This document shows positions 3,193 to 59,808 of a stretch of 64,000 nucleotides of DNA, in pieces (the first letter of the stretch is position 1; the number at the start of each line of letters is the position of its first letter). Source of the stretch: Hydrurus foetidus (Eukaryota); assembly GCA_900617105.1 (NCBI GenBank), contig UYFQ01000829.1:1-64000 (forward strand), written 5' to 3'. The position numbers were made by a program, and so were the translations under genes. The notes beneath the pieces are model-generated. The model was not told where the DNA came from. It made no database searches and worked only from the letters and a program-made list of their open reading frames with translations.

Positions 3193-3301
3193 ATCCTTGC
3201 CCAGGACTGCGTGGCTGTCACTTTCGATAATGATGTCTTTAATCTGACTGATATTCATTTCGATTGCATTCGGCATTTCTCCTGAGCTTAGCGCTGAGAA
3301 T

Positions 3302-6300: not shown

Positions 6301-6742
6301 TGTGTTCCCCGTGGGGTCATATGTCTTATGCCGATACACTGATCGACCTCCAACTCGATTACATACTAAGTGGCATGGCCCTTACTGTATTGTCTCCTTT
6401 AAGGGGTCCGAGTATGTTCTCGCAAATCTTGTAAACCACAAGACACGAAGTGTTCACGTCAAGAATTTGAAAATATTCAATTATGACCCAGAGGTAGATA
6501 TACCTGCTGACACTGCTCGTCGCGATTACATGGAGTTCGTGGTTGAGAAAGTTCTGGGTCACGCTGGTGACACCAAGAAACCGACTACAATGTCGTTCCA
6601 TGTTAAATGGCTCAACTACGATGACTCTCATAATACATGGGAGCCGTGGAAATCACTACGGCTCTGTGAAGCACTCCATGATTATTTACGGGATAACAAA
6701 ATGAAACATTTCATTCCCAAAAACATTGAGACATCAGCCTAA
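3302..6742 (+). CDS. pol: Gypsy pol: reverse transcriptase, RNase H, integrase, chromodomain (1146 aa, uninterrupted)
   Basis: RT motifs RTCIDYR, DLTAGYHQ, LPFG, YLDD. RNase H TDASDFGIG, KEAYA. Integrase HHCC, DYIGP, RSDRG, ENAIVER. GPY module. Chromodomain VEKVLGH...VKWLNY...NTWEP. Confidence 0.97.
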   Translation: MRKSDARRREFERKEALDKLDPLFQHKYTRRMIALGTEPDTAVVESLTPHYDKLKYPGGKPPSKKRETHGSFEYPNKKSILHGQSSSKSNVSCVHTMSTCNDTQMEIEGVATQDPCGVVGCERLNSVTTILAKRTGDTPHLGGDQIPTPTNTSEDSDTLDYVTEPLWPSGVALSVDEIDDGKIDTFAPFLAEKPSQDDLPKGPEDFLKEITFEGDESFQRKLRELCSEYSDIFSDQLAEKPASLKPFEINIPLELWEKDENRTPVRPQSSTKEVALKENLDEMLASGVIERSDAAYYSHPVIVTKSPGKFRTCIDYRPLNRCLKPASFPLPNIKHLFERIGNKKPDIFGVMDLTAGYHQAPLHPAHRIFTAFICFAGVFQFTRLPFGPCRAPSYFQEQMVTAVLYGLIYHCCEMYLDDCIVYGKGEAEFLTNLKKVFARFRLKGLRLKAKKCRFGLPRIEYVGRVVDKDGLSMSKEKIETVLNFSIPKNLTLLRSFLGLANYFRQFVPMHSTLVKPMQDMIDHSAPRRSAVVWTQKSTNSFVDTKIAISRCPLMYFIDDNKLDIRLYTDASDFGIGGVLFQVVGAIWQPIAFISKSLTPTQIRWSTIQKEAYAIFYCCTQLDYLIRDRTFTIHTDHLNITYMKQNPTSMVARWFIAMQELDFTVVFVPGTSNVLADALSRLCPNLTEIALPLRTEELELLPTSSSSFTVSALTVIEPASDDQLEYIQMCHNAIVGHNGVDRTLTRLFSLQQVWKHMKQHVRTFIQNCPCCQKLSAKDPKINASHFATSNYAIFDTLNVDYIGPFPDKGYILVIIDTFTRWTELFWCADADAKSAADCLLAHFGRFGSPNMIRSDRGSHFANELIKEFLDLCGTPHNLTLAYSKQENAIVERVNKEVNRHLRGLVFDKQTLEGYAKSIPFVQRIINSSVNRRTGVCPAHLLFGNKLDLNRGILTPHLSVGTHSRSTYISDLISVQDEVLETAVQTLLKADAKNAASAESATVFPVGSYVLCRYTDRPPTRLHTKWHGPYCIVSFKGSEYVLANLVNHKTRSVHVKNLKIFNYDPEVDIPADTARRDYMEFVVEKVLGHAGDTKKPTTMSFHVKWLNYDDSHNTWEPWKSLRLCEALHDYLRDNKMKHFIPKNIETSA

Positions 6743-7092
6743 GTTGCTGATCTCGAACGTATTATCTTTTGAAGATTTTTCCTAATTTTTCCCTCTATGA
6801 GGTTTTTATGGTTTTAGTCAGTAAAAATCTGACATAATTACGTATCGAGGTCTCGTGCGCAAGTACATGGTACTAGGCACCCACCTTATCACCTTGACCG
6901 ACCTACCACCAAGTCTATTTGTATAGATTTTTATTTTATATTATACATTTCAATGTATTATGAGATTTACAGATTTGTAATCTTTTTCTTTATTCTCCCT
7001 TTAGTTAGTTTTAGTTGTATTAGATTTTTGTACAAAACGTGGTGGTCGCGTCATAGGTTCTTTTTCTTCAGAAAAAAGATAAGTGGGGGTGA

Positions 7093-7299
7093 TGTGGTCG
7101 GACCGGCTATACCGGGCCTACGGGCCGTACCGGACCTAGTCCCGATCCATCCGATCCTACCGCCTACTGTACACATACATCTCTAGCGCAGCTGCTAGCT
7201 AGCTCTAGCCTACTCGTAGAAGTTATCCTAGCTTCTAGCTTAGAGCCTGTAACTAACTAACACCTCCATTCTATCGACCTACCTTCTATCCGAACTACA
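7093..7299 (+). repeat. Gypsy-1 3' LTR (207 bp)
   Basis: Direct repeat of 1405-1610. Confidence 0.97.
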
Positions 7300-8344
7300 G
7301 AGGCGAAGACGTTTACGGGCTTTTCCTTCGGCGTCTTCGGAGTCCTCACATAGGGTCTGATTATTCGCCCAACACTCTGACTCTTGACCACCGGTGACTT
7401 AAAACTATCTTTCACTTTTGCTTTGGATAGGACCTCGATTCCGGCAGAGTCGACAACCACGACGTCGCTGCAGCTGGTCTCCGGCGAAGCGAGAATCGCC
7501 TCCTCGGAGTCCTCCGTCGCAGGATCCACGCTGTGATCCTCCCAGGAATTCAAGGCAGCTGCGACAGGAGCTTTCATAATTGGACCTCCGGAGGCTTTAG
7601 CATAGTTTCCTGTAGCCGTGTCGACTGAAATTTAGAGTTTAAGATTTCCTTTGTTAATTTCGATAATTAAAAATTATTTTTCCCTTTATAAAATCAACGC
7701 TTCACTTACGGGAAAAAAGGATGCACAGTTCCTTGTAAAAAGGGAGAGGTGCCCTCGAAAACGCTTTGGGATGAGTTGCAAAGTAGGTGTTCAGCGCTTC
7801 TGGCGCGGCTGTCACCATACCCTTTGCATCCATTCCAAACCCGCTATTATTCGCAAACTGGTCGAATATCGTCCAGTTCTTTTTAAGCGACTCCACTTGA
7901 GAAGAAAGGATTTTCTTGTCGTAGGGCAGTCCTGTTTTCAGGGTGAAATCTGCCACTACTAACTTCCAAGCAGATTTTTTATTTTTGATGTTAGAATACC
8001 TACCATCAGAGTGCTCCAGAAGGCATTCGATGAGAACCTTGCGGTTCACATCGAGCCACTTCACGGAGCCCTCAACTTTAATCTGCACGCTGGACGACTT
8101 ATCAAGAACTGTGCTGAAGAGACGATCGTTACTGTCGATAAGAAAAGTTGCATCGCAGAAACTTTCAGATATCGCACTTCACGAATCAGGTGAATCGTTT
8201 CCAGCACAACTTTCTGTGAATTCTCGTGCCTCAACTTTTTTACCGAACAGCTTTTTCAGTAAAAAATTGAAGGCTCGAGAAACTACAGATTTTCTAAAAA
8301 ACTACAGTTTTTTGGTGGAATTTTCGTTTACCGAACGCACCCAT

Positions 8345-8703
8345 TGTCGGAGTCCACGCTTTAGTTCCACTGAATGGGCAACTAAATCCTTCCTGGGTCC
8401 TTCTGCAACTTCAACCTGGCGTCTGATCACTTTCCCGGGCTCAAGGCGAAAGTGGGTTTAGTTTGGAGTTTAAAGTAATTAACAATGCAACGTAGCTTAC
8501 ATCGTTCATGGAGACAGTCGAGAAATTCGATCTGTCCCGCACAGTCAAACATGGTGTACTTTCATTTTTAATGTTCCTGGATGTGGAAAAAGAACTTGGA
8601 CCGGTGGAGTAGCGACCTCCACGTGGCACACGACGTACGAAACGTCATTAAATGTACATACGTAATAACTTATACGGTTACTTATCACACAGTTATTCCG
8701 ACA
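8345..8703 (-). repeat. Copia-1 3' LTR (359 bp)
   Basis: Near-identical to 20099-20464 apart from a 7-bp indel and a few substitutions. Confidence 0.97.
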
Positions 8704-9786
8704 CACCCCTATGGCGTGAGTCGTCGGGTTGATGTATGTGGATATGAAAACGCAGTAGTTCAAAAATACTCCGTTTACATGGAGTTGCACAGGTGGTGTA
8801 TCATAGCATGATTTTGTAGGGTAGGGAAGTAGGGTAATGGTGAGGTTGGTGTTAGTTGTGACGTTAGATAATTTATTACACACAGGGTAATGTTAGTATC
8901 ATAAGGTCTGACTGATCCTCATGAAAGTAGAATTAAAAACGCGCTAAAAGATTTTTTAGTAACACACATAAGAATGCAATGAAGGCAATTTCCTAACTGG
9001 GTAAATCGCTGCACTCCGCACTTCTTTCTTGGGTCTGGTCCGCGCTCCTCGCTCGTCGTGTCTCTGTCAGGGTTTTCTTGGGGTCTTGAGTGTTTGGGTC
9101 TTGGTTTCGATTCTCACTTGACGGGGCAGTAGGAAAATGACGGAGGGGTAGGAGGAACAGATGGAGTCTTGGGGTCTTTGTCATGATGCGCACTGATGGG
9201 GTAGTAGGAATGGATGGAGGGGGGCAGCAGGAATGACGGAGTCTTGGGGTCTTCTGAATCAGTCTTCGGCTGAAGCGGACAGCGGTGGTTTAGTAGGGTA
9301 TGATGGAGGGGGGCAGTAGGGAGTGATGTAGTCTTGGTGTCTTCGTCGCTGGCATCAAGTCTTCTTCCCAGATGGGTATCGGAAGTGTGGGTTGGTCTTT
9401 TTCCGCGTGGGAGTAGGTGGTGGGTCCACGTGATCCTCAGTCTTGCAGCCTTCTGCATAGGTAATTGAGAGGGGGGGGATGTTGAGTAGCTGCTTCCTCA
9501 GCTTCCTAAATAGCTCCCCCTGCAATGGCTTGGTTAGGATATCGGCGATCATGTCAGTAGTAGGTAGGTAGACGATGTCGATATCGCCTGTGATAATCCT
9601 GTCGTGCAGGAAAAAGTACCGTATGTCGACGTGACGTGTACGTTCACTATTAGAACGACCGTTACGCATTAACTGTATCGTGGACTGGTTGTCCTGGTAC
9701 ACTAGTGCGGGAGGCTGTGGGTGTCCTTGGCTCTCCAGGAAATTCCTGGTCCATAGCACTTGGTTGGCGGCGTCGCTGAGTGCGAC

Positions 9787-10048
9787 TGTAGCCTTATTGC
9801 ATTCCTAAGGGGATACAATGTGTCTAGGTTAACTAGGTACAATAGGTATATTACGCCCAGATTCCACTTTTAGGTCTTAGTTCCACATATGACGTGAATG
9901 CACTTTAGCGTACACATCACTTGTAGATACTCAACTGTAAAATACTAACACAAGTTTACTCCACCTACCCTTTCTTCCCTTGCCCACCGCTTGCATCAAC
10001 CGACCACCACTTTTAGCTCCAACGTCCTAGGCCCCGCCCAAGACCACA
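9787..10048 (+). repeat. Gypsy-2 5' LTR
   Basis: Direct repeat of 15273-15534. Confidence 0.97.
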
Positions 10049-10084
10049 ATATCGATATTTGGTCGATACCAAAGTTTTTTTTTT

Positions 10085-11908
10085 TTGCGAGAAATCCATT
10101 TCTCCACGCCATCAATTTCAAATCCCATCACTCATATCCGACAGTCGAAGAAAATGGCTCTCCGACGCCAGGACAAGAGGATTAGCACCATCAACTCCCT
10201 TCGCCGACAACGACAGCCCCCTAGAGCTGTCGCCGTCGCCTTCCGACAACGTTACGAGGAGCACCACAATCGTGGAGGAGATAGCATCGAGTCTCCTGGG
10301 CCACCTGCGGCTCAGGACCCCGCCGGCGACCTGTCTGCACCGATTCCTCAGCGGAATTCGGAGCCTGCGGTCTCGTCTGTTATTGATGCTCCTGTTTTAT
10401 CTGCTTTATCCGCTCTAACGTTATCACCAGTTTCGACTGCGACACCAGCTTCGGCTGAGATACCAGCTTCGGCTGCGACACCAGATTCGTCTGCGACACC
10501 AGCTTCGGCTGAGATTCCTCGTTCGATGGCACCACCTCAGCACTATGTGCAAACGGGTGAGAGAGCTCCTAAGTTGAGCGCCGTGCCCTCTCGTCAGGAA
10601 GTACTACGGGTAATGGAGGTCCTCCTTTCAAATGGAACTCCATTTAAACCAGTTGATGTAATCCATGTTTCCAACCATCAATCGTTTACAACGCTTCTCA
10701 AGCGTAAGTTTGCAACTGATCCCGATCGTCGCGACTCCTGTAACAATTGGAAACATTGGTCGAATCAATTGTTCTGTAGAGAACTCAATCTCACAGTTCC
10801 TACATCAGCTGTCAATCGAACTGACAAGCTGAGTTTCATTGAAACTGTCTCTCAGGTCGCACTTCAATTCGACCTGAAGGATAAATCAGTGGAAGACAAG
10901 ACAGATCAGCTTTTAGCTGATATTGTTGATGGATTCCCTGATGCAACACCCGCTCTCCAACTTCAGGCAACCAAAATTCTAATCGATAAGTTGCCTGTCG
11001 AACCTATCAATTGGAGAGCAGTGTTACAGCGTAGTCTTAACAATACAACGCCAAGACTCATTACAATCGAAGACTTTCGATTCGTATGGCTTGCGCAGCT
11101 TGCTAAGCTACGAGAATCAATTGATGCCTTACGGTTCATTGATGTCTCTCCTTTGTATGGTGATCACTCTCGCCAAATCAAAGCTCCTCCTCGTTCCTCT
11201 CAGGACAAAATCAAAAAACGTCCACGAGAGAGCGAACAATCTGTGCAATCAGACAAGTCTGACAAATTCGAAAGACCTCTGTGCACAGGTTGTGGGAGAC
11301 TCGGCCATTTCGTCGCCACGTGTTTCTACACTACGTCTCCGTACTATAACAGTACAGACGCACCCTATATCAACTCTGAGGGTCATAAGCAGTTGTTGAA
11401 AGTCGATTCAAAGGCTAAGTTTATTCCAACTTTACCTAAGACATCGACCTCTTCTTCATCGTCTTCCTCTTCTTCTTCCTCTTCGTCAAAACCTGCTACT
11501 TCAACAGCAGACTCGACAAACGCTGCGAAGAAACACAAAGGTGAGCAACTATGCAACCTAAATTCATCATCTATTCTTTCCGATGATCCAGAACTTATTC
11601 CTTTCTTCGTATCTCCCCTCTCACAGGAGGTTATGCTGGAAAAAAGTAATAGAGTCTTTACTCTCCTGGACACCGGCTCTTTTGCTGGCAACTTTATACA
11701 TCGCCGCATTATAACTAATCATAATTTCACACAATTCGTTTCTAACTCTTCAAAGAAATTGTGTAAAGTTTGTAGTGGATTAGATAATCATTGTTATGAT
11801 ATTTCTGACACTATAGACTTAATTCTTTTTTATTTTTGCCCTGATTTAAATAATTATTATACTTTTCAAATCACGGCTTATGTTTTAAACGAATCAAAAT
11901 GGATTTAA
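10085..11908 (+). CDS. gag: Gypsy-2 gag-protease (likely ATG at about 10154)
   Basis: CCHC knuckle CTGCGRLGHFVATC, Ser-rich linker, protease LLDTGS. Confidence 0.85.
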   Translation: MREIHFSTPSISNPITHIRQSKKMALRRQDKRISTINSLRRQRQPPRAVAVAFRQRYEEHHNRGGDSIESPGPPAAQDPAGDLSAPIPQRNSEPAVSSVIDAPVLSALSALTLSPVSTATPASAEIPASAATPDSSATPASAEIPRSMAPPQHYVQTGERAPKLSAVPSRQEVLRVMEVLLSNGTPFKPVDVIHVSNHQSFTTLLKRKFATDPDRRDSCNNWKHWSNQLFCRELNLTVPTSAVNRTDKLSFIETVSQVALQFDLKDKSVEDKTDQLLADIVDGFPDATPALQLQATKILIDKLPVEPINWRAVLQRSLNNTTPRLITIEDFRFVWLAQLAKLRESIDALRFIDVSPLYGDHSRQIKAPPRSSQDKIKKRPRESEQSVQSDKSDKFERPLCTGCGRLGHFVATCFYTTSPYYNSTDAPYINSEGHKQLLKVDSKAKFIPTLPKTSTSSSSSSSSSSSSSKPATSTADSTNAAKKHKGEQLCNLNSSSILSDDPELIPFFVSPLSQEVMLEKSNRVFTLLDTGSFAGNFIHRRIITNHNFTQFVSNSSKKLCKVCSGLDNHCYDISDTIDLILFYFCPDLNNYYTFQITAYVLNESKWI

Positions 11909-11923
11909 TAGCAAGCAATTCGA

Positions 11924-14900
11924 ATGGGACGAAAAGCAATTCGCGAATTGAATTTATTTTCACGTTTCCCCGATCAAATATCTGCCAATGCTTCATCAAG
12001 CACTACCTCATTAGCGGAAGTTTTATCTTCTGAACAAGTGGATATAACGTGTGGCTGTCAGCCTAAGGAGAAGTTGCAACCCTCTGATGGCTCCCCAAAG
12101 GTCGATCCTTTAACCCAAAAGGTGAAACCGGCAGTAACCCAAATACATGTTATTCTAGCTTCACTAATACAAGAGTCTGAAAGACTTTTTGAGGCTGTGC
12201 CCCCTGATGAGGACGAAATCGACGACTCGATCAAGGACTCGTTTTCACCTTGGATAGATGAATTTCCTGATACTGACCCACTCTCGCTAATAAACTTAGC
12301 AGGTGATGAAGATCAGAAAAATAAACTTCGGTTACTAGTACACGAATTCAAGGATATATTTAGCAGTGAACTTTCGGCCACTCCTGCTGATATTCCACCC
12401 TTTGACTTTCATGTCAATGACGACCAATGGAGAGTTCCTAAAAATAGACAACCTCCATGGGCTAAATCAACAGTTGATCAAGCTGACATTCTCAGTCAAA
12501 TTAAAAAACTTGAAAAACAAAATATTGTTGAAAAATCGAACGCGGCTTATTATAGCCAAGTTTTACTAGTTCCTAAATCTGATGGAACTAAGCGCATGTG
12601 TATTGATTTTCGGAATCTCAACAATTGTACCGAAGATAAATCACATCCTATTCCACACATCGGTGAGATGTTGCGTAGAATAGGTGCACATAAAGCAAAA
12701 GTGTTTGCTGTACTTGACCTCACTCAAGGGTACCATCAAGCACCACTTACACTCGCTGCACGTGCTTATACTGCATTCATACTTTTCTGCGGAGTATATC
12801 AATTCACTCGTTTACCCTTTGGGCCTAAACAAGCACCCTCCTATTTCCAACAGATTATGACAACTGTTGTGTTAGCAGGGCTGATATACTCTATATGCGA
12901 AATGTACATAGATGATTGCAATGTTTTCGGTAAAGACATTGACGAACTTATTACTAGACTTCGTCTTGTGTTTGATCGATTTAGAAAACACAAAATATTC
13001 CTTAAACCGAATAAGTGTTATCTAGGCTATGCCGAAATAGATTATGTTGGCAAAGTTCTATCTGCAGATGGACTTAGAATGTCACAAGAAAAAATACGGA
13101 CTGTCTTAGATTTTCCTAAACCAGTACTATCTAAACAACTCAAAAGTTTTTTAGGATTGGTTAATTATTTTCATGACTTTGTTAGAAACGCTTCTACTGT
13201 TGTATACCCGTTACATCAGTTGCTTCTTAACTATAATAAGTATAAGAAAATAACTTGGACAATAGAAGCTCTCAGAGCATTCAATTTGATCAAATCTGAG
13301 ATTTCAAAATGCACGACTATGCACTTTTTAAGTGACACCGATCCGATATACTTGCACACTGATGCATCGGACTACGGTGTAGGTGCCTATCTTTTCCAGT
13401 TAGTTGACGGTCAAGAAACGCCCATAGCATTTGTCAGTAAATCACTTAACAAAGCTCAGCTTCGTTGGGCTGTTATACAAAAAGAAGCATATGCTATCTT
13501 TTATTCGTGCACGTATTTAAAATCGCTATTACGTGATCGTACGTTCACATTGCGTACAGATCATCGTAACTTGTTATACATCAAGGATAATTCAAATCCA
13601 ATGATTGTTCGGTGGTTTATGGCCTTATCCGAATATTCATTTAAAATTGAATATATACCTGGTGCTAACAATGATATAGCTGATTCGATGTCTCGACTCT
13701 GTCGCAATAACATGGTTGATTTCCCTCAGGAATATACTCCTGATGCAATCATGTCTGCTAATACTATTGAAAAATTCAAACTAACACGTGATCAGTACAA
13801 TACAATCAGTAAAGTACACAATTCACAAGTTGGGCATTTTGGCCTTGAGCGCACTTTAAAGCGTCTCATTGACAAAAGATAGTATGGCAATATATGCGTC
13901 AGCACGTCAGGTGGTTCATAGATCACTGTTCGTGTTGTCAGAAAATGAGTATGTTAAAGATACCAATACATGCTCATGGTTTCTCAACTTCTACTTACAC
14001 ACCTATGGAATGCCTTAACATAGACTTCATAGGACCGTTCCCAGACGGCGGGTACGTACTCGTAATTATCGATACGTTCACAAGATGGGTTGAACTGTTT
14101 CATACAGAAGATGCTACAGCACTTTCAACAGCTAAATGCCTCTTGCAACACTTCGGTCGTTTCGGCGCACCTCTCCAACTCCGTTCTGATAATGGGCCAC
14201 ACTTCATTTCCGAAGTTATTAGAGAGTTTCTAACTCTTATTGGCACTCAACATTGTCTTACTTTAGCATATTCTAAAGAAGAAAATGCTATTGTTGAGCG
14301 CATGAATAAAGAAGTTAATAGACATCTTCGTGCATTAACATTCGATAATGTCACACTAGAAGATTATAAAACGTCACTTCCATTTGTGCAACGAATTTTA
14401 AATTCTAATCACAGTGATCGTTTAAAAATATCATCTTCTCAACTTCTTTTCGGAAATGTACTAAAACTCGATAGAGGTATCTTTTACCTCCTGCTGAGCG
14501 AAATGTTACTGATGACAAACCTTTGTCAAAGCGTATGAGCAATCTACTCAAAACGCAAGACAGTCTTCTTAAAGCTTCTGCTAAAGAACTTCTTCGCACA
14601 GATTTGCTTCATCAAAGTCAGTCTCAAGTTTTTCAGCATGTAGATTATCCAAAAGACTCTTATGTCTTAGTGCACTATCGCGATGGATCCCTCCTTCACG
14701 TCTTCACACGCATTGGAGAGGCCCATTAAAAGTCGTTAGTGGCGAAAATTCGCGTTACACACTTTATGATTTAGTCACTCAGAAAACTTCAGAGTTTCAT
14801 GTTTCTGCAATGAAACCTTTTCTATTTGACCCTTCAATCACAAATCCGTTGGATGTTGCACGACGTGATCACATGGAATACTTTGTTGAAGACATTCTTG

Positions 14901-15073
14901 ATCATCGTGGCAAACACCAACGTACCCACATAGAGTTTTTAGTCAAATGGTTAAATTACCCTTCAGACAAAAACACTTGGGAACCTTATTCAAGTCTTCG
15001 TGATGTTGATAAACTTCATGATTATTTACGTCATAATAACATGACTAAATTAATCAATAAGCAACATAGATGA
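11924..15073 (+). pseudogene. pol: Gypsy-2 pol (RT-RH-IN-chromodomain) broken by frameshifts near 11900, 13880, 14480 and 14690
   Basis: YIDD, TDASDYGVG, DFIGP, RSDNG and VKWLNY...NTWEP are spread over ORFs 11924-13882, 13894-14538, 14523-14729 and 14810-15073. Confidence 0.93.
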
Positions 15074-15272
15074 CTTAATATATTTGAAACTTTATCCATG
15101 AGGATTCTCTCCTATTTTTTTACCTACCGGTCTTTTTTGGAGAGTTTAGTCAGTAAAAGTCTGACATCATCGTTTCATCTATATCTCATATATATGTTTT
15201 ACATATCTTTTCATTTTTTTCATTTTTTTTGTATATCATATCAAAGATCTTCAAAAAAGGAAGAAGGGGTAG

Positions 15273-15534
15273 TGTAGCCTTGTTGCATTCCTAAGGGGAT
15301 ACAATGTGTCTAGGTTAACTAGGTACAATAGGTATATTACGCCCAGATTCCACTTTTAGGTCTTAGTTCCACATATGACGTGAATGCACTTTAGCGTACA
15401 CATCACTTGTAGATACTCAACTGTAAAATACTAACACAAGTTTACTCCACCTACCCTTTCTTCCCTTGCCCACCGCTTGCATCAACCGACCACCACTTTT
15501 AGCTCCAACGTCCTAGGCCCCGCCCAAGACCACA
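15273..15534 (+). repeat. Gypsy-2 3' LTR
   Basis: Direct repeat of 9787-10048. Confidence 0.97.
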
Positions 15535-18500
15535 CGACTAGCTCAGCCTCTGTGCTGGACTTGGTCATCAGGCGCTGTGTCCCGCTCTTGGCATAAATTG
15601 CCCCCTTCCCCAGTGTGACCACGCTACCTGTGTGGCTTTTCATGTCGGGGTGTATGGCAAAGGATGCGTCGATATATGCAGTAACATGGATAGGTTCATG
15701 TACTTCAAATGTAATACCCATGTGCTGGGTACCCCGTATGTACTGGATCGTACGGGACAGCTTGTCGTAGTCATCCCTTTGGGGCTTTAGCACCCGCTTG
15801 GTGAGGAATGCTACAGCCGTGAGAATGTCCGGCCTAGTCCTCTTACTCAGGTACAGTAGCTTGGCTGTAATGGAGTGGAAACGCTCACGCAAGTCATCAG
15901 GTAATAATGGGTTAGATTCATCAGGTATAGCAAACAGGTTGGGTCGTGCAGGAGTGGTAGCCGTGCCCGGCATGTCCGTGCACCCCTCAATGAGATCTTT
16001 TACAAACCCTTCCATCGTCATCTTGACTACTCCTTCGTTATTGAAGTCGAAGGTCATACCTATGTAATTTAATACTTTGCCGCGGTGTTTGGTTAGACCG
16101 GGGTATATAGTTTCAATCTGCTTTATGACCTCATCCACGCAGGATTCGGTTGAAGCAGTAATAATCATGTCGTCAACATGAATCACTAATGAGGTTTGTG
16201 TGTTATCAGTTTCAGTTCTATTGAATACGCAGATGTCGTATTCGTTTGCAGTATAATTGAGTTTATTCAAATCGCTGGATAGTTTGTCATACCATAGCTT
16301 AGCAGATTCTACACATCCATGTAAAGCTTTCTTTAGTTTCACAATACATGTTCCATTCTTATTTATGTATTTGTTATATGTTGCGTCTATTTGTATTAGT
16401 GCAGCAGTCAGTTGTTTATTTAATCGCATGTATACAACATGGTCACCGGTCAGCGGCATATCGCTATTCAGAAATGCACCAGGGAAATCAACAGTGGCAA
16501 TAGCACGGTTCTGTTTAGCAGCAATCGCAGTTAGTATAAATACGCTGGATGTGCTAGCAGTAGGGGATGCACCGTTGTTATAAACATCTCTATCTTGTAG
16601 GTGCCCACCGGCTACTAATCTAGATTTCAGTTTTTCAAACATACCATCAGCCGTGTACTTTTCTTTTAGAAACATGCTACTCGGTATGATGGTGCGTTTT
16701 TGTTTAGGGGTAAGTGATTCATAAGTTACACCTTCCTATACATCCTTGTCGCACATTTGTTTTAATTCGGATGTAATGGAATCAACAGCTAGCACCCCTA
16801 ACTTATTAATTCCTTCACTAACAGTCATCTTATATAAGGATGTGTTTTTATAAAACATGCTACCAACATATTTCCTATTCCAATTACCTAGTTGGTGGTT
16901 TCTACCACTTCTACGCAACAAAGGTGAAACACTGTCTGGTAAATCATATTCTGTTTCTATTACTGAAGGTGGTGAGAATACTTCGGGTTGCGCAGTTACA
17001 TCGTCAAAGTCATTTTCATCATCACTTATTCCAAATATATCATCAATTAGTGCTTGATCGTATCTGGGTGAACGCTCATGTGTTTCGTATTGATTCGCAT
17101 CATCATGTGTGTGGTTATCGTAATATAGTTCGTCATTAGTATGAGTGGTGTCATTCGTATATAGTGTGTCATCTACATACTCATCTAATGTCGGTGGGTT
17201 GTTTTCATCGTACATATATTGTTGTGGCTCAGGGTATGTGTCATTGTCAACGTGTTGGTTGTCTTCAGTGATTTCATCGGTTTCTTCTGCGTCAGCAGAT
17301 TCGTCAATGGTATCATACTCAATGTCACCAATGTATTCAGGGTCATCGTCAACATCATCATCATCATCGAATACGGTGTGGCTATTCTCGAATACAGGTT
17401 GTTTAACATTGGCAGTTTTTCTATTCGCTGCCAGACTGTTTAAGTGTAACACAACTTCATTAGGCATGGGTAGTACGGTTGCTTTTGTACGTTTAACAAT
17501 TTGTTCATTTGCTAACAGCATGTAGTACCATGAACCTTCTAGATTGCCGGAGCTCATAAGTGCTATGGCCCCGGCTGTTCTTGGTTTGGTAGAGTTGTCA
17601 ATAACATCATTGTGCACTTGGACATAATCACCAAAACCGTGCTTAATCTCTTTATCTACATCAATCTTTCTACCGCTGAGTTTCTCTCGTGGGCTGATGT
17701 GATCTATAGAGTTACGTGTGGGAGCTAATACAATTCTACTGACTGCATACTTAACTAACCACACTTCAAGTTTCTCGCTTAATTCAAATGGCAGCGTGTT
17801 AATAACGGATCTGACTCTCTCTTTGATATGTCTAATCTTACGCTCCACTACGGCTACGGCTTCCCCGGCTCCGGTAACATCTAAAATGATACCTCTGAGA
17901 CTGACTTTGTTGTGGAACCATTCGGTGTTTATGGCGCCTTCACCGTCTACTCTTATCATCTTAATCTTAAAGTGATACTTAGTCATGCCTGCTATGGCTG
18001 TCTTTAGACTGTTCCATAGTGTCTTGTGATCTCTCTTGGCTAGCTTGCTAACAAACAGGAATTCAATAGGCTGTACAACTGATACTAGGTAAGGTATTTG
18101 GTTGACAAACATTATATCAATGTACATGATCTGTTCTGTCTTATACTCTGTGCCTATAAGAGGTAACTTCTCTTCTAGCTTAGCTTGGTGGCTAGTAGTT
18201 TTACCCTTTAGGGATCCAATGTCTGGTCCCCATATGTCTACTGCTCGGTGTACGTCTCGCGCAGTCACTTTACTGTTAGTCAAATTCCCTTGGGATATCA
18301 ACTTGATAGTTTGTGCTGCGCTAGCGTAACCTAGCCTACGCTGATAGTCTCTAGCTAGCGAAGCGTCTCTGACCTCTCTAACTGTATACTTCTTCTTTTT
18401 CTCTTCTACGGTTGTAACTAATAGTGGCATGCATTTAGTCACCATAGTGTCAAGGTTGCACTGGTATATATTCATAGATTCATCTCGTGAGAATCTGTAG

Positions 18501-18960
18501 AAATAATTACCAGTGACATCCTGTACTATGTAACAGTCATGGTCATGTAAGTACATAACATCAGTACAGTCACGTACAGCATTACCGAAAGACAGTATGT
18601 TACCAGCACAGTCAGGGCTATAATATACATTGCCAAACGCTGATTCGCCACGCTCCTTGACTATTAGCGGTTTTCCTTTCGGATTCACCCCGCTAACAAT
18701 CATGGGAGTAGTGGCAGATTTTACATTGTATAACAGGGATGAGTCGTTGAATACCGACTCACCAGCACAAGTATCAAGCAGTATGTGTTTTGTTTTAATT
18801 GCATTGTATATATTACAAGTGTTTGCACTAAATACAATACGGTCGCACGATTCAACCCCGCTAGTGGAGTCAGCCAAACGTGGACCGGTGGGGGTAAGTG
18901 CATGTACGGGTGTGTGTGTGTGTGGGGGTGCGTATGTGGGTGAGGAATAATGTAATGTGT

Positions 18961-20073
18961 TTAGTTTACCGATTTCGAGTGTCCACTGGCTGCTGATGCA
19001 GCCGATTGGCTCTCCTGGGCAGTGCACTCATATGCATAGTGTCCCGGTTCCTTACATGAATTACAGATCCCGGGTCGGGTGCCGTATCCCGGACGTTCAC
19101 CCTTCCCTTTTCCCGCATCCCCAGTTGACTTTCCCTTCTCTCTACCTACAGATTTTTCTCCTCCAGCTGTTTTCACTGCAAAGATATTAGATTGATTAGG
19201 TGGGCCCGTTCCGGCCGGTTTTCTGGGAGTCACCTTAGCCATCTCTAAGTACGCTTCATCTAGCGAATCTGGCCAGTCCTTGATCCCATGCTCGTAGTAT
19301 TCTACGAATTGTTTGTACCCCGAGTTGAGTCCCTTCATGAACTTCATGCCCGTGAGAAGATTCTCGTGTATGGTCATGGCCGGTGTATACACCGGCTCGA
19401 TCCCTAGGACCCGTTTGGTGTCATCGTATCCAGTCTTCAGGGCTTTGAAGCGCTGGTAGTAGTACTTAAGGACATCGTTGGGCTCCATTCTTACGGTCTC
19501 ATAGGCCATCCTTACCCGTAGTAGGTTCTCGTCTGCTCCCAGCTTCGGGTCGGACAGGTGGGTGAGTATGATGGCTCTCATGAATAACAGCGGGTTCTCC
19601 GCTGTGATCGCGGCCAGGCCCGGTTCAGTTTCGCGGATAGTCGCCTTAGACGTCTCGCTTATCTGACCTAGCATCAGGCCGAAGACCTGCTTCTTGTCGG
19701 TTTCTAGCTCCGTCATTTTCTTGTCGTAGAGGTCCAGTGATTTCTTCCATCTTGCAATTTGCATGAAGTTCGCGTCCTCCGCTATATCAGCAGGAGCCAC
19801 TAGGACGGGATACTCTCCCGGTATGCCTTCGTTCCCAAATATGTCACAAATGTCTGATTTATAGTTGGTCCGCGTATACTCTCTAAATTTTCTCATCCAT
19901 GCGCTTACGCTACCATGGTTCATTTCCTTCCCCAAATCCAGGAACGCGCCTATGGCCGCTACCGTTCCTGTTCGGGGTGGAGGCTTGAAGCCTCCACGGC
20001 CGGCATTGCCTCTGCCGCCGTTGGCAGGGCCGCCCTTGCCAGAAGGTTTCTTGTCTGCAGCTTTTCCTTTCAT
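18961..20073 (-). CDS. gag: Copia-1 gag
   Basis: RGG-rich N-terminus and CCHC knuckle CNSCKEPGHYAYEC; highly similar to gag at 59809-60929. Confidence 0.9.
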   Translation of the reverse strand: MKGKAADKKPSGKGGPANGGRGNAGRGGFKPPPRTGTVAAIGAFLDLGKEMNHGSVSAWMRKFREYTRTNYKSDICDIFGNEGIPGEYPVLVAPADIAEDANFMQIARWKKSLDLYDKKMTELETDKKQVFGLMLGQISETSKATIRETEPGLAAITAENPLLFMRAIILTHLSDPKLGADENLLRVRMAYETVRMEPNDVLKYYYQRFKALKTGYDDTKRVLGIEPVYTPAMTIHENLLTGMKFMKGLNSGYKQFVEYYEHGIKDWPDSLDEAYLEMAKVTPRKPAGTGPPNQSNIFAVKTAGGEKSVGREKGKSTGDAGKGKGERPGYGTRPGICNSCKEPGHYAYECTAQESQSAASAASGHSKSVN

Positions 20074-20098
20074 AGGATGAAAGTGCAATTGTTAATTA

Positions 20099-20464
20099 TG
20101 TCGGAGTCCACGCTTTAGTTCCACTGAATGGGCAACTAAATCCTTCCTGGGTCTGCTCTCCTTCTGCAACTTCAACCTGGCGTCTGATCACTTTCCCGGG
20201 CTCAAGGCGAAAGTGGGTTTGGTTTGGAGTTTAAAGTAATTAACAATGCAACGTAGCTTACATCGTTCATGGAGACAGTCGAGAAATTCGATCTGTCCCG
20301 CACAGTCAAACATGGTGTACTTTCATTTTTAATGTTCCTGGATGTGGAAAAAGAACTTGGACCAGTGGAGTAGCGACCTCCACGTGGCACACGACGTACG
20401 AAACGTCATTAAATGTACATACGTAATAACTTATACGGTTACTTATCACACAGTTATTCCGACA
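20099..20464 (-). repeat. Copia-1 5' LTR (366 bp)
   Basis: Repeat of 8345-8703; related to 59419-59783. Confidence 0.97.
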
Positions 20465-20690
20465 CCCATTACGTTTACGGTATTGTCGCAACCCAGCGAA
20501 GACTTCAACAAATTTCGGTTGTTTACTTCGTGATCATTCCGCCGCGTGTAGTCACTGTGTATCCATTCCCAATGACTCTTCATATTGCTCAAGAGATGTC
20601 TTATCATATCTCTTCAACATGCCACTTCGAGGTCGGTGTGCATTCGTCGTTTTTTCACTCTGCTCGTTGGAAGACTGAGCTGGGGGAGCC

Positions 20691-27937: not shown

Positions 27938-30900
27938 TTAAGAAACTAGGATGGCGTACTTACTCCACCAAGAAGACACGGATTTCTCCAGGAATCCGAC
28001 GTTAAAACTTCCCTTCGCTTCAAGGCAACTTTCTCTCTGTGTACTCGCCACAGTGGTAGTGAAAGCTGCTGTACTGATGAGGGCTTTTAAATGGCCTATC
28101 TCGATTGGAGAAGGGGAAAATGCCCAGATAAATACAACAGCGCTGCCACCTGGCATTATAGCCCTAAAATAGAGGGAATATGAAAAAAGGGATGAGGGAG
28201 GGAGGGAGGGAGGGAGAGAGAGATAGCGAGGGAGATGGCGAGAGAGGAAGGGAGGGAGAGAGGGAGGGAGAGAGGGAGGGAGGGATTCTAGGAATGTATG
28301 ATTTGCAAATGCTTAACAAAATCAAAACAAATTAAAATTCAGGCAGTAAAAAGGTTTCATGAACACTCACACAACACTTGATCAGAAACATTCCCAGGCT
28401 CCTCGTTTATTCCAGGTCCGCATTTAATCTGGACCCACCCCTGTACACGACTACAAACTGTACCGTACTGTTTTCAGTTTCAGTACAGTACAGTTTATTG
28501 TCGTGTGTAGAGGTGGGTCCAGATTAAACGTGGATCTGTAATAAAGGAGGAGCCTTGACTTCGTAGAGTGGGGGAAAGTGTCCAAGTCGATTCTGTTTGG
28601 AAGAAATATCATGGCTGAACTAGACCAGACTTAAGTCTTCATTTGTGCAGCATGGGATACAATGTGTGGACTTTGTACCTAGATTCTGCTTCATATCCAG
28701 TAGCTATCGAGCCCAGTAAAAGAACATTCTTCCCATGTACAATTTGCACCCTGGATATCTGCAGTGGTGAAAGGGATTTGTTGATGATAACCGTAGCACA
28801 GCACCTGGACGCCTGCAAGCCTGAGTGAGTGCAGTGCCACTCCCAGACCAGGCGCCACACACTCTCATCCAGCTGTGCCCATGTGAGATACCCGCTGTCC
28901 ATTCGCCCTGCTATTCTCTTCAGTACGTCACACTCAGGACCGATTATTCTCCGCAACACAGTGGCATTCGCAAATCCGAACCTGTACCCCTCTATCAACC
29001 CTGCAGGTGACATCGCTTTTGCCTGTTGTTTCTCGAGGTCCAGTCTACCGGCAGTGGATGATGTACTTCTTTCTACAGTCACGAGATCGGATGGAATGAT
29101 GTGGCCAGGACTGCCCATTCTGTGTGCGTTGTGAGCTAGTGCAGCGTACGCCTTAACAGCTGCATGGCGACTACCGCAAGGAATCATAACGGCTTCCGTC
29201 TCGCCCCCGTACAACACCACACCCACACTGTTCAACAACACGTAGCAGTGACTGATATTCGCCCATGTCCTGCCCCATAGGGATTTAGGCTTTCTCCAGT
29301 ATACATACGTTTCGCTGAGAACAATTGCTTCCCCTGCATTGTCCAAGGGAATGTAGCTCAGGAAGACATCTTCGTATCCGATGCTCTTAGACCGCTTACT
29401 GACGAACTCTTGAGCGAATGCTGCCTCCAAATTGAGAGGAACTAATACCAAATCCGAGGCGTCACTAGCTGACCTCTCGAACGCTCTGGGGGGACGGACA
29501 AGAACATGCACACTCGCCACACCCACTTGGTTAGACACTCCGCTGTAAGGGTGATGAGAAATGAAAATTGAGAAATGACGCAGATGATGAGTGGGCATGA
29601 AGCAGCCAATCAATTAGTGAATTAGTCACTCAGTGAGCCAGTGATGGATTGTCAGTCAAGCGTCACGCAGATATGGGTGTGTGTGACAGTAAAGCAAATG
29701 CATTGACGATAGTGCGAGCAACTCGTCAGATACACACACGCACACACAGATGCGCACAGACTTTTTGCGGCAACAAATGTAAAAGTGCATCTTGTGCCAT
29801 GACGCAACACCTTCACGAGAATCCCATCCCATCCCATCCCATGATATCATATCAAACCACATTCAATCTTATCCCATATCATCCCATTACACCACACCAC
29901 ACCACACCACATCACATTATGTTGCACCACACTAGAACACAACCCATCATATCACATCACACCACGCACAACACTTCACGTACCTCGCCACCGAGGTCAG
30001 TCCGTCTGTGATGCCCATGACTGGTTTCACAGCAGCTCCAATCAGACCGAGTCCTAGACCCCTAAAAAAACCCTGCACCCCATTCTTACGGGCCTATTCA
30101 GCGGGATACAGATATGAAAGAAAAGATAAGTGGAATGATATTATAAAAGTTTGCATTGATTCAACAACGCCGCATTATCTGGTGGTGTGATAGATTGTAT
30201 TCTGCACACATACTACTGGTTACCGACACCGCACTACCTCCCTCTCTTTGTCACTGATACTCACTCACCCACTACCTCTCCATCTGATTCTCTCTCATAC
30301 ACACACCATCCCTCTATCTCACACTACCCTCCTCCCTCCCTCCCTCTCTCCCCCTCCTCTCTCTCCCTCCCTCCCTCTAACTCACTCACTGACGCACCTC
30401 TTCGAATGGTTTGGTGACCAATCCGCTTACGCCGGAAGTTATACCGGAAATGACACTCTCGCTCCCGTCCAGTATTCCATCCATAATTCCCCCTCTATTA
30501 GCCCTATTTCTCTGTCTTTTCAGCGCCCTTCTTCTCACGTATTCGGAGTCACCGGTGAGCAGGGAGATCCCCTTAGAGGCGGTACCCACGATTGCCACAG
30601 TAGAATTCATCGCACCACTACAAGTACGTAAGTACAGATTATAAATACGTGAATTACACTAGATATTTAGAGAATATACTCCATTACTTTTGAAGGATAA
30701 ATTGATGAATGAGTCACAATATCCGACAATAAGCACTATGTAGAATATTGAGCAGATGTGTGGTGTACATAAGTACACACTAAACGCGCAAATCAGGCGT
30801 ACACTGCAATAAAATACACAGTTGCATTGTTCTGTGACACTTAAGTGCTGATGTGTGGTTTCGGCATTCTTTATCTCAAAGCTTTCAAACAAAAAATACA

Positions 30901-33900
30901 AAAAATTGTGGAAAAGATTGATTATTTGTCAAAGAAAAGTTCAGCAGGACGGCTCGTAGAACAAATCTGACATTTGAATTCGTGCATACCTGACGACATT
31001 CGCCAACAGGTGAGATGTGCCCCGTCCCAGGCCAACGACAAAATCCTGTGGACCCAGGACCGCACCTGGAATCAAGAGTTGTTATACGGTTTGTGAGCGG
31101 ATGTTGAGGATGCTGTTGGTCGTTAAGTAGAACGGAGAGACGTGGAGGAGGAGGGTAAGGGGAGGGGAAGTGGGGGCATGCATTTAGTTGGAAGTAGAGA
31201 CGACATCAATGTCATAGCGATCACTATATCGAGTGTAAGCACGAGTTTCAGACAAGAACAAGAACACTAGTAACAATATTATCATCATATCCATTATCGT
31301 GCAGTGAGTATAAAAACGACAATATTGTGTCGGTTATACCTGCTGTCAATCACAGAGTAGAACGAGGAGCAAATGACTATCAGCCCATCAATCAAATTTA
31401 ACAAAAAGTACCTTGATATGGCTCATAGAAAAATGACTTCACGCCGCTACCCACTTTCCGTGCAAACCCCATCGGGGATCCGATCACAGTCAGGGATCCT
31501 GGGACAGGAGGGAGGGAGGAAGGGAGGGAGGGAGATAGGGAGGGAAGAAAAGAGAAAGATGGGGCGGAGGGAAATAGAGTGAGAGAGGGGGTTAGGGAGG
31601 GAGTAAGAGTGAGAGAGGGTAAGAGCGAGCAAAATACAGTGGAGATATGCTTAAGTGGGTCAGAAAAGGGTGGAGTAGGGAGGTGGAGAGTGATACTGAT
31701 TGCTTGCAGAATGCACGTGTAAATAATGAGGATAAATAGCACTGCAGCCCCCAAAGCGCTAACCTGATAATGTCATGCATTTCTACGAGATCGCATGGCA
31801 GGTGTGTGGGCAGACACCACAGCATAGCACAGCACAGCACAGCACAGCACTGCACTGCACAACACTGCAGCACACCACACCACATCATACTATACTACAT
31901 CACACAACAAAGATATACCAGCGATCTGCGCCAGCTGTGACTGGAGATCCATCAGCGTCTTGTGTGCGATCAAATCCACAAGAGAGCCCCACGACTCGAA
32001 AACATCTTCAACTTCAAAGGATTTCAGCCGTAACTGCATACGGTCAACTCCGGCCAAGGAGGTCAGGAAGTTTAGCGCAGTAGTTTGAAACGAGTTCTCT
32101 CCTGTCTTGCGTGGAAAGGCAGTCTGCACAAATGTTAGTGTGATTTTAACTGGGTGTATCACGAGTTTTTCAATGCACATTTTAGAGGCCTGTGCGCTGA
32201 GTTGTGATCGATACACATCCACCGACGCATCTCTCTCACACGGGCTTGTTATGTTGAAGTTGAAGTTCTCCATCCATTTCTCTGGACTTGAAGTTGCTGC
32301 TGCTTGTTCGTGGTCTATAAAGTGCAGCTGCGAGATGAGGTCTACGTAAAGCAGTTGGATTGTCGCTGATTCCACCTCAAGAGCAAGTGGCAGTATCCTG
32401 TATGGAAGAAGGGAGAGAGGGAGGGGTAGTGAGAGAGGGGTAATGGGGGTGTAAGAGGGAGGGAGTAAGTGTTTTAAATGCTTGCTGGTGAAAGCGAGGG
32501 AGAAAGGTAGGATAGAAGTTAAGGGCGTAGTGTGAGTGGGTAATCGAGGAAGTGAGATAGGGTTTTGTGAGTGGGTGAAGGGAAAGTGAGAGACACAGAA
32601 AGTATGCTTCACGGCGAGAGCTATGGGGTGGGAATGAGGAAGGCAAAGGTTCGCAGAGAAACTGGTAATGTGTGCTCTTTCTGTTGAGTTGCTGTGATTC
32701 TTGGCACTTGTTTGAAGAAAGTAGATTCAACCAGAATTCGACATGCGATAGAAAGACAAAACTACTCTGATTTGAAACACATAACTTCACGTACCTGATG
32801 GCAACATATTTCAAAATAGAGGAAGAAGAGGACGAAGTAGATCCGTCAGAACTCTCTCCAACTAACTCCTCGATCAAAGTCATTTGAAGCCAAGGCACCT
32901 CGCCCTTTGACCATGAGTCGAGTTTACACTGGGCAATATGTTCGTTTTTATCGACTTCATTCTCACCAACATCATCATCATTTTCTTGACCACGTTGAAA
33001 TAGATCAACGCTTTTATGTATTTCTTTCTTTGTGCTGTGTAGCAGTACAGGATACACCACAGTCTCTGAGTAGTTGTCAACTTGAAGATCGGTTATCATA
33101 AATTCAAATGACCGCATAGAACCCTTCGTCTTCACTCTGCCTTCCAGGCCATCTATATACATACTAAAAAACTCTCTTCTAATCGGCTTTTCAACCACTA
33201 AAGAAAGGCCAAAAGATGCCAACCCAAAACTCAATCCGAACGAACGTACACCTTCTGTACTTACTGGTGACGTGCTACTAGAAGATTGTGAGTTCTTGGA
33301 ATTTGACGACCCAGGATCCACAGATCGGGATATGAGCAGTACTCTTCCTCCTCCTTCTGCCAGCACAGATAGCACTATTTCCCCTTGTGCTCCTACTCTA
33401 TTGCTGTTGTCAGGCAGACGTAACTGCTCACCTGCATTCAGTAGGTCTAATCGGGCTATTCTCAGTCTCTCTCCTGCCAGGCTAGTACCTGCTGTTACTA
33501 GGATGTCGCTGCTGGAGTCTGGATCTGCCCATCCGTAAGGTGTGCTGTGATATGGCGCAACACACACATCAAACGCAGCCTTATCCACCCCCATTTGATC
33601 CGTCTCAATATCCGCTTGTTTGATCGTAACGTACACATCAGAGTCATTGCGTACGGACAGTGCTGCCCCCTTCACCTGTGTGGCCTGCCACACCACTATC
33701 ATCACGGAACACGGATCCAAGGTCTCCGCAGCCTTCACTTCAATCACCACCACATACGGCTCGCATGCATTAGGTCTGGTGTTCGAATCCCGCCTAGGGA
33801 GATGAATAACCCTGCGTCCTAACTCATTCAAATCAATGCATCCTAAACTCCATAGGGTGTTTGTCGTTCTTATTTGCACACTAGTGCCTGAGGACACTTT

Positions 33901-36900: not shown

Positions 36901-37067
36901 GCGATTACTCGGTTGATGTGTGTATGTGATAGACAGATGGGAGATTGAAAATCGGTGACGTGTGCGAAATTGTAACCGTACGAAAGACCAAGACCATACT
37001 ACCGCTTCACGAATTGCATTTTCATACGCACATACAGACACGCACACATGCACACAGATACGCAGAC

Positions 37068-37128
<61 letters not shown>

Positions 37129-59418: not shown

Positions 59419-59783
59419 TGTCGGAATAACTGTGTGTTAAGTAACCGTATAAGTTACTACGTATGTACATTTGATGACGTTTCATCGTCTGTGCCGTGTG
59501 GGGGTCGCTACTCCACCGGTCCAAGTTCCCTTTAACCCAGGAACATCAAAAGGAATGAAAGTACACCATGTTTGACTGTGCGGGACAGCGCGATCTTTTC
59601 GCCTGTCTCCATGAACAATGTAAGACACGTTGCATTGTTAATTACCTTAAACCTCACACCAGCACAGCTTTCTTCTCGAGCCGAGTCAGCTGCTAGCGGA
59701 GGTGTTGAAGTTGCAGAAGAAGATCGTACGCAGGAGGGATCTAGTAGACCATTCAGTGAGACTGAAGTCCAAGACTTACGACA
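59419..59783 (+). repeat. Copia-2 5' LTR (365 bp)
   Basis: TGTCGGAATAAC...TTACGACA. Confidence 0.93.
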
Positions 59784-59808
59784 TAATTAACAAAATATCT
59801 CAGACACC

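What the first reader, a model, noticed from the sequence alone, without database searches (positions are those of the whole stretch)
20088..20247. Copia-1 has a Tf1-like self-priming architecture: its PBS is the exact complement of 11 nt inside its own LTR
Seen (minus strand): the 5' LTR is followed directly by TAATTAACAAT (20098-20088), not a TGG-type PBS. The LTR contains ATTGTTAATTA at 20247-20237, the perfect 11-nt reverse complement, 149 nt from the LTR end and in an initiator-like context TTGC^ATT. Known: in S. pombe Tf1 the first 11 nt of the transcript anneal to the PBS and are cut off by RNase H to act as primer; this is established for the Tf1/sushi Gypsy lineage. Inference: a Ty1/Copia lineage has convergently evolved tRNA-independent self-priming. 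The primer 3' end would pair with the first PBS base and extend into U5, which is the correct polarity. I am not aware of this being described in Copia.
Basis: partly seen in the sequence, partly recalled or inferred. Interest (0 to 1): 0.88.

Follow-up and report, generated by a model that had tools for sequence, protein, structure and literature searches.

The report
Self-priming Copia retrotransposon clade
This Copia-type jumping gene has no tRNA-binding site; instead the 11 bases next to its left repeat pair perfectly with a stretch inside that repeat, and about thirty distant relatives keep this pairing with different letters, so the whole group likely starts copying itself with the first bases of its own RNA, as the yeast element Tf1 does.

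Summary
A young, now broken Copia element (LTRs 20464-20099 and 8703-8345, TSD ATGGG) has an 11-nt PBS (20098-20088) that is the perfect complement of 20247-20237 in its own LTR. A second family member in the window (LTR 59419-59783) keeps a 10-bp duplex. Among 39 elements with an LTR-gag junction (median RT identity about 41%), 30 have a perfect 10-21 bp LTR/PBS duplex starting right after the LTR end. There are 28 different PBS 10-mers, none with TGG; controls give 0-3 of 39. In 27 of 30 the LTR arm starts at a CA, matching an initiator. This rules out chance and a tRNA primer and supports Tf1-like self-priming across a large protist Copia clade. Transcription start and RNase H cleavage are inferred, not measured; the start may be 20246 rather than 20247. 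The novelty claim is partly wrong: self-priming was already proposed for plant Copia (Houba, Osr-1, TAR; PMC6317226). My searches found no paper describing it for this diatom-like lineage. This scan has noted the same architecture before in several diatom genomes. Independence from TAR was not tested on a tree.

The parts
20099..20464 (-). 5' LTR of Copia element A (366 nt; U3 about 20464-20248, R-U5 about 20247-20099 if the TSS is as inferred)
   Evidence: direct repeat with 8345-8703, TG..CA ends, TSD
20237..20247 (-). Predicted self-primer: 11 nt (or 10 nt from 20246) at an initiator-like CA
   Evidence: exact complement of the PBS; identical in element D although R-U5 is only 69% identical; CA context in 27 of 30 elements
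20088..20098 (-). PBS at offset 0 after the LTR, no TGG
18961..20073 (-). gag ORF, 370 aa, C-terminal CCHC knuckle; start codon 25 nt after the LTR end
   Evidence: (zf-CCHC E 7.8e-4)
16736..19027 (-). pol, first part (protease and integrase by recalled motifs; no Pfam hit), in the -1 frame relative to gag, ending at an in-frame stop
15535..16735 (-). Copia-type RT and start of RNase H
   Evidence: Pfam RVT_2 E 5.8e-22
9787..15534 (+). Nested Gypsy chromovirus B (262-nt LTRs, 4-bp TSD CGAC) inserted in the RNase H region of A
9478..9786 (-). Rest of the RNase H region of A (ADILTK motif)
8704..8710 (-). Short polypurine tract plus 2 nt before the 3' LTR; same motif in relatives
8345..8703 (-). 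3' LTR of A (359 nt), with the second copy of the 11-mer at 8486-8476
20465..20469 (-). Target-site duplication ATGGG (other copy at 8340-8344)
59419..59783 (+). 5' LTR of sister element D (same family, interrupted near 62830); self-primer copy at 59634-59644
59784..59793 (+). PBS of element D, 10-bp complement of its LTR arm (the 5'-most A is unpaired)

Best explanation
This is a Copia retrotransposon whose PBS pairs perfectly with a 10-11 nt stretch inside its own LTR, and it likely primes reverse transcription with that stretch, predicted to be the 5' end of its own RNA, instead of a host tRNA. Steps: (1, inferred) Pol II starts at the CA initiator at 20247/20246. (2, shown in sequence and by folding) the first 10-11 nt pair with the PBS, closing a loop of about 140 nt of R-U5. 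(3, inferred by analogy with Tf1) RNase H cuts after the paired stretch and frees a 3'-OH at the first PBS base. (4, inferred) RT copies U5-R, jumps to the 3' R and takes U3 plus the primer sequence from the 3' LTR. (5, inferred) the plus strand copies the RNA primer into the new PBS, which would write any primer mutation into the PBS and explain the tight covariation. The architecture is shared across a large, mostly protist-looking Copia clade, with primers of 10-21 nt.
For: 30 of 39 elements have a perfect duplex of 10 bp or more at offset 0 (31 scored; the L041 hit lay in gag and was discarded). Controls: direct 3 of 39, reverse 0 of 39, complement 2 of 39, cross-locus 51 of 1480, true PBS of X against LTR of Y 6 of 930, 2 of which are the A/D pair. 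With the LTR end chosen blind to pairing, 24 of 39 reach 10 bp, 23 of them at offset 0. There are 28 distinct PBS 10-mers among 30, none with TGG, and duplex GC is 16%. The 5' edge is at a CA in 27 of 30 against a 9.5% background (binomial 8e-25), and pairing never runs 5' of that A. The diatom initiator-like motif is TCAH+1W (PMC4686930, passages). The signature lies on all main branches of the 52-row RT clade; median pairwise identity is 41%. A's nearest relatives show 2 (L042) and 4 (L072) paired changes in an 11-nt arm. A against D: U3 86%, primer 11 of 11, R-U5 69%, gag 70%, pol 77%, and other subfamilies in host-run contigs part from A 6-8 nt after the primer. This puts the U3/R border at the primer. 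Tf1 mechanism: PMC7175516, passages.
Against: No TSS, cleavage or primer was observed. No RNA holder was listed, and only contigs could be laid. Nine of 39 elements miss the 10-bp rule: L037, L064, L071 and L041 reach 9 bp, L044 14 bp at offset 1 under the blind rule, L078 11 bp at offset 3 by eye, and L048, L085, L102 show nothing clear. A common variant at 20245 (third primer base) in host-run contigs, for example 47,073 of 64,804 summed depth in X2, has no matching PBS change among the 40 rows shown, with 91 rows hidden; whether it is compensated is open. L002 differs from its near-duplicate L003 by one uncompensated (G-U) change in the arm. The A duplex is weak (-7.6 kcal/mol), and D's duplex is not in the minimum-energy fold of the longer RNA (probability about 0.55).
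Confidence: 0.8

Rival explanations
1. The same LTR stretch is the primer, but it comes from the 3' R copy or from a second packaged RNA (for example a short or cleaved transcript), not from in-cis cleavage of the 5' end.
For: The sequence is present in both LTRs, so covariation alone cannot tell the source. An earlier scan note (e1-7857552) proposes this for a Gypsy clade.
Against: The arm's 5' edge is fixed at an initiator-like CA in 27 of 30, while its 3' edge varies from 10 to 21 nt. That is what a capped 5' end predicts; a 3' end gives no reason for it. The in-cis duplex has mean pair probability of 0.75 or more in 28 of 30 predicted leaders.
Confidence: 0.11
2. The duplex is a conserved structural element (RNA circularisation, packaging, dimerisation or translation control just upstream of the gag start), and priming uses something else.
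For: The PBS lies within about 17-70 nt of the gag start in most elements. Other lineages have unexplained hairpins at the PBS position (fungal GalEa, PMC5445492; Gypsy B and C here).
Against: The 3' arm starts exactly at the first base after the LTR's terminal CA (offset 0 in 23 of 24 blind cases). Only a primer fixes that position, because it defines the LTR end. No other PBS is present (0 of 30 with TGG).
Confidence: 0.06
3. The PBS binds a tRNA half: the arm resembles a tRNA-Asn(GTT) anticodon loop, and tRNA halves prime Drosophila copia, Osser and Bianca.
For: The window's 11-mer fits a YT-GTT-AA pattern (recalled tRNA layout). Half-tRNA priming is known in Copia. The host tRNA set was not available (no genome).
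Against: Only A and D of 30 have that pattern. The nearest relatives change the would-be anticodon together with the LTR copy. There are 28 different PBS 10-mers. No tRNA was found in the window, and there is no tRNA-like Rfam match over the LTR.
Confidence: 0.02
4. Chance complement between AT-rich sequences.
For: The duplexes are 84% AT, and the cross-locus test reaches 10 bp in 3.4% of pairs.
Against: About 2e-4 for this element alone; 30 of 39 against 0-3 of 39 in matched controls.
Confidence: 0.01

Closest known systems
Tf1/Tf2 of Schizosaccharomyces pombe and the Tf1/sushi group, incl. Tcn1 (Ty3/Gypsy chromoviruses)
   Same: PBS complementary to an LTR-internal stretch, no tRNA site, 11-nt arm in this element, same polarity (Tf1 mechanism from PMC7175516 passages).
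   Different: This element is Copia: RVT_2 RT, integrase before RT, no chromodomain. Arms in the clade run 10-21 nt and are very AT-rich. Tf1 priming is proven by experiment; here it is inferred. A U5-IR-like flanking stem was not established.
Plant TAR lineage of Ty1/Copia (Houba, Osr-1, Fourf)
   Same: Copia elements with predicted self-priming. This element passes the published rule used for TAR: 10 bp or more, starting 0-5 bp after the LTR (PMC6317226).
   Different: This clade lacks the Pfam domains that a mainstream Copia in the same scan shows (Retrotran_gag_2, Pol_BBD, SH3_retrovirus; L018 against L002, L010, P0190 and window ORF). Its RVT_2 score is low (77-101 against 145 bits), and its nearest Atlas clusters are eukaryotic with diatoms commonest (very few members have a taxon). 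It is probably a separate lineage; not tested on a tree.
Diatom CoDi elements (CoDiI / CoDiII lineages, Maumus et al. 2009)
   Same: Divergent Copia of stramenopile type; size (6.4 kb without the nested element) and LTR length within the reported range; Atlas neighbours are diatom clusters.
   Different: The paper's main text does not discuss PBS, tRNA or self-priming; its supplement was unreadable. No named CoDi sequence was available, so the subgroup is not assigned.
Fungal GalEa Copia with a Conserved Hairpin Site
   Same: Copia without a tRNA PBS.
   Different: GalEa has a palindrome plus downstream hairpin, and the authors found no LTR complement (PMC5445492). Here the partner lies inside the LTR.

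Membership tests
Ty1/Copia LTR retrotransposon | TG..CA LTR pair with TSD and polypurine tract | tested here: met
Ty1/Copia LTR retrotransposon | Copia-type RT (RVT_2) | tested here: met
   E 5.8e-22, above the curated cut-off
Ty1/Copia LTR retrotransposon | Order PR-IN-RT-RH | tested here: inconclusive
   RT then RH shown. PR and IN upstream are read from recalled motifs only; Pfam gave no hit.
Self-priming LTR elements (works like Tf1) | 10 bp or more complement between the PBS position (0-5 bp after the LTR) and the 5' LTR | tested here: met
   11 bp at offset 0; 30 of 39 elements
Self-priming LTR elements (works like Tf1) | No tRNA-complementary PBS | tested here: met
   0 of 30 with TGG, 28 distinct 10-mers; the host tRNA set itself was not available
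Self-priming LTR elements (works like Tf1) | The complementary arm is the 5' end of the transcript | tested here: inconclusive
   Indirect only: CA initiator context in 27 of 30 and identity border; no raw RNA reads
Self-priming LTR elements (works like Tf1) | RNase H cleavage releases the primer | not testable with these tools
   needs biochemistry or degradome data
Tf1/sushi group (membership) | Ty3/Gypsy RT (RVT_1), integrase after RNase H, chromodomain | tested here: not met
   RVT_2, no chromodomain; not a member
Plant TAR lineage | Clusters with Houba/Osr-1/Fourf in RT-RH-INT trees | not testable with these tools
   no TAR reference sequence could be fetched
Plant TAR lineage | Mainstream Copia Pfam architecture (recalled as typical of plant Copia) | tested here: not met
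   absent in 4 of 4 clade proteins, present in outgroup L018
CoDiI / CoDiII diatom lineages | RT clusters with named CoDi elements | tested here: inconclusive
   Atlas neighbours are diatom-containing clusters, scores 0.95-0.96, with a taxon known for only 0-7 members each; no named CoDi reference

The most novel reading that the evidence does not exclude
A large, ancient Copia clade of stramenopiles and other protists primes entirely without tRNA, using a capped 10-21 nt piece of its own transcript. It arrived at this independently of both Tf1/sushi and plant TAR, so a Copia RT/RNase H cuts an RNA-RNA duplex, and primer and PBS co-evolve automatically because the primer templates the next PBS.
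Probability: 0.55. Interest if true: 0.72.

Novelty: new variant of a known kind. Interest (0 to 1): 0.57.

Why it matters
Self-priming is proven only for Tf1 and, in Copia, only predicted for the plant TAR lineage. A whole divergent Copia clade with about 30 different, covarying primer/PBS pairs shows that tRNA independence is a stable, clade-wide strategy. It bears on whether self-priming or tRNA priming came first in LTR elements, a question raised in PMC3601003. It predicts the exact start site and cut site for each family, which makes RNA-RNA cleavage by a Copia RNase H testable in a transformable diatom. In practice, LTR finders that require a tRNA PBS will miss or down-rank these abundant elements.

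Tried and rejected
No whole genome is held, so there was no copy survey or host tRNA comparison. No RNA holder was listed among sequencing runs; this says nothing about expression. laid contigs only, which cannot show starts or cuts. Whether the common variant at 20245 is matched in the PBS stays open. Scans that found nothing: viral contigs with the integrase region and the RT alignment, and metagenome contigs with the Gag alignment. So no DNA was obtained for the close Gag relatives at 40-99% identity. ARAGORN found no tRNA in the window; Rfam over 19900-20600 gave only a chance-level scaRNA match (E 0.48). My first blind LTR-end rule (best terminal inverted repeat anywhere within 800 nt) often picked CAACA inside gag and was replaced by rules bounded by the gag start. 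The RT tree is the quick version, with no bootstrap and no TAR, CoDi or Ty1 references, so it cannot place the clade or give a direction of change. A 1-nt-bulged extension of the duplex 5' of 20247 (seen) was rejected as a primer extension because D lacks it. No look-alike earlier finding exists for this DNA itself.

Full report
Observation. On the minus strand the window holds a Copia element (A) from 20464 to 8345. Its LTRs are 20464-20099 (366 nt) and 8703-8345 (359 nt), differing by 2 substitutions and one 7-nt indel, with a 5-bp TSD, ATGGG. It encodes a 370-aa Gag with a CCHC knuckle, a pol region in the -1 frame, and an RVT_2 reverse transcriptase (E 5.8e-22). It is broken by an in-frame stop at 16736 and by a Gypsy chromovirus nested in RNase H (9787-15534). 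The 11 nt right after the 5' LTR (20098-20088) are the exact reverse complement of 20247-20237, 149 nt from the LTR end. In 200,000 Markov simulations of the LTR the 11-mer appeared 36 times.

A second copy of the family. Against A its U3 is 86% identical, the 11-nt arm 100%, R-U5 69%, gag 70% and the PR-IN region 77%. Its PBS keeps 10 of the 11 pairs; the 5'-most A is unpaired.

Relatives. An RT alignment of 107 proteins retrieved 24 loci from prokaryote genome bins, which I read as stray eukaryotic contigs. It also retrieved 78 loci from metagenomes (the best 80 of 520 confirmed matches, from 12 of 64 parts of the collection). Of these 102 loci, 39 had a stretch from RNase H through one LTR towards gag on the contig; 63 were dropped as too short or lacking it. 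Two near-duplicates (L002, L011) were removed and A and D added, giving n = 39. LTR starts were found by the conserved polypurine-TGTTG motif. For each CA between LTR start + 100 and the gag start I asked how far the following bases pair perfectly with the upstream LTR. 31 of 39 reached 10 bp. One (L041) was a hit inside gag and was discarded, leaving 30; at its true end L041 has 9 bp. The same search for direct, reversed or complemented matches gave 3, 0 and 2 of 39. Cross-locus pairs gave 51 of 1480, and true PBSs against other elements' LTRs gave 6 of 930, two being the A/D pair. When the LTR end was chosen without looking at pairing, 24 of 39 reached 10 bp, 23 at offset 0; that rule picks the wrong CA in several known positives, so it is a lower bound. 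The 30 PBSs hold 28 different 10-mers, none has TGG, and duplex GC is 16%. RT identity among the 32 rows with 9 bp or more has median 41% (31-74%), and the signature is on all main branches of the 52-row clade in a quick tree. Kin share traits, so these are not 30 independent origins; but because the letters differ, the pairing has been re-established many times. A's own subclade (support 99) shows it directly: L042 has 2 and L072 has 4 paired changes relative to A.

Is the LTR arm the 5' end of the RNA? This was not measured. Three indirect signs agree. First, in all 30 the arm begins at, or one base after, an A, and in 27 of 30 that A follows a C, against 9.5% at random LTR positions; T is the commonest base before the C (20 of 29). 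This matches the diatom initiator-like motif TCAH+1W (PMC4686930, passages). That motif puts +1 on the base after the A, which would fit the 11 of 30 elements, including D, in which the A is unpaired. So the start may be 20246 and the primer 10 nt. Second, the 5' edge is fixed while the length varies from 10 to 21 nt. Third, U3 plus the arm is more similar between A and D than pol is, and host-run contigs of other subfamilies leave A's sequence at 20229-20231, 6-8 nt after the arm. That is where a strand-transfer crossover would fall if R began at the arm. The predicted leader folds with the duplex at mean pair probability 0.75 or more in 28 of 30 elements.

Against, or open. Nine of 39 miss the 10-bp rule; four of them reach 9 bp and three (L048, L085, L102) show nothing clear. 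A variant at 20245 is common in host-run contigs (X2 47,073 of 64,804; X3 50,324 of 92,926; X4 2,476 of 3,515 summed depth). No matching change at 20090 was among the 40 rows shown, with 91 hidden. Those subfamilies have a different R-U5 and may not lie on A's PBS at all, so this is unresolved. L002 has one uncompensated G-U change relative to L003. A's duplex is only -7.6 kcal/mol, and D's is absent from the minimum-energy fold of the longer RNA. No RNA data could be laid.

Mechanism. In Tf1 the first 11 bases pair with the PBS and RNase H cuts between bases 11 and 12 (PMC7175516, passages). I infer the same here (0.8). Shown: the duplex, its position, its covariation and the absence of a tRNA site. 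Inferred: the start site, the cut and the use as primer. One consequence, also inferred, explains the covariation: the progeny's arm is copied from the 3' LTR and the progeny's PBS can be copied from the primer, so a tolerated mutation in the arm is written into the PBS one round later. Rivals: the same stretch supplied from the 3' end or a second RNA (0.11), a structural role only (0.06), a tRNA-Asn half (0.02; the anticodon-like pattern occurs in only 2 of 30), and chance (0.01).

Comparison with what is known. It works like Tf1 but is not a Tf1/sushi member. Self-priming in Copia is not new. Neumann et al. [quoted passage not shown] Whether this clade is independent of TAR could not be tested on a tree. 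Indirectly, four clade proteins lack the Gag, protease and SH3 Pfam domains that a mainstream Copia in the same scan carries, and the nearest Atlas clusters are eukaryotic with diatoms commonest (few members have a taxon). This points to a CoDi-like lineage; the CoDi paper's main text does not mention PBS or self-priming (PMC2806351: passages and section 18), and its supplement, which lists structural features, could not be read and may bear on novelty. Searches for self-priming with copia plus diatom, stramenopile, algae, Houba, CoDi-I or 'tRNA-independent' returned no paper describing it for this lineage; the library lacks most subscription journals. The host is unidentified; a stramenopile is my inference from the element's neighbours. 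This scan's earlier notes report the same architecture in several diatom genomes, read after my own counts; they are not independent support.

Verdict. A real feature, very probably Tf1-like self-priming, and a property of a whole divergent Copia clade rather than of one element. It is a new variant of a known kind: the mechanism is known, Copia precedent exists in plants as a prediction, and this lineage appears undescribed. Interest 0.57.

Noticed in passing
window 10049-10058 (+) and 1611-1620 (+): Both Gypsy chromoviruses in the window (B, 9787-15534; C, 1405-7299) have neither a tRNA PBS nor an LTR complement (longest 4 and 6 bp). Each has a perfect 10-nt palindrome right after the LTR, inside a short hairpin with U5, and a 4-bp TSD. 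This recalls the fungal GalEa hairpin site: a third, unexplained way of priming.
   Followed up: partly
L017, L018, L019 (after the LTR end, about 540-600 nt past RNase H): A distant mainstream-type Copia family also has a 12-nt palindrome directly after the LTR, flanked by an inverted repeat, and no TGG.
   Followed up: no
window 18961-18975 (-) and 60915-60929 (+): gag and pol overlap with pol in the -1 frame. In both A and D a G GTA AAC heptamer sits just before the gag stop, with no downstream structure; 16 of 21 Gag relatives checked end in Asn. Possible -1 frameshift, unusual for Copia (recalled); most distant relatives have one long ORF.
   Followed up: partly
window 20248-20464: U3 is shared by many subfamilies with different R-U5 and gag: summed contig depth is far higher over U3 than over gag, and A/D identity is 86% in U3 against 77% in pol. 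This suggests U3 swapping at strand transfer.
   Followed up: partly
window 62830-64000: Element D is cut off by unrelated sequence that looks like the reverse strand of another retroelement integrase region.
   Followed up: no
window 51588-52478 (-) and 48167-50478 (-): An intronless ORF with a weak RNA polymerase Rpb2 domain 7 match (E 8.5e-6, below the curated cut-off) lies next to a DDE_1 transposase; possibly a relic of a virus or linear plasmid.
   Followed up: no
window 28639-45655 (-) and 56947-59304 (-): Host genes: a large VPS13-like gene in several exons with microsatellite-rich introns, and a Na+/H+ exchanger.
   Followed up: no
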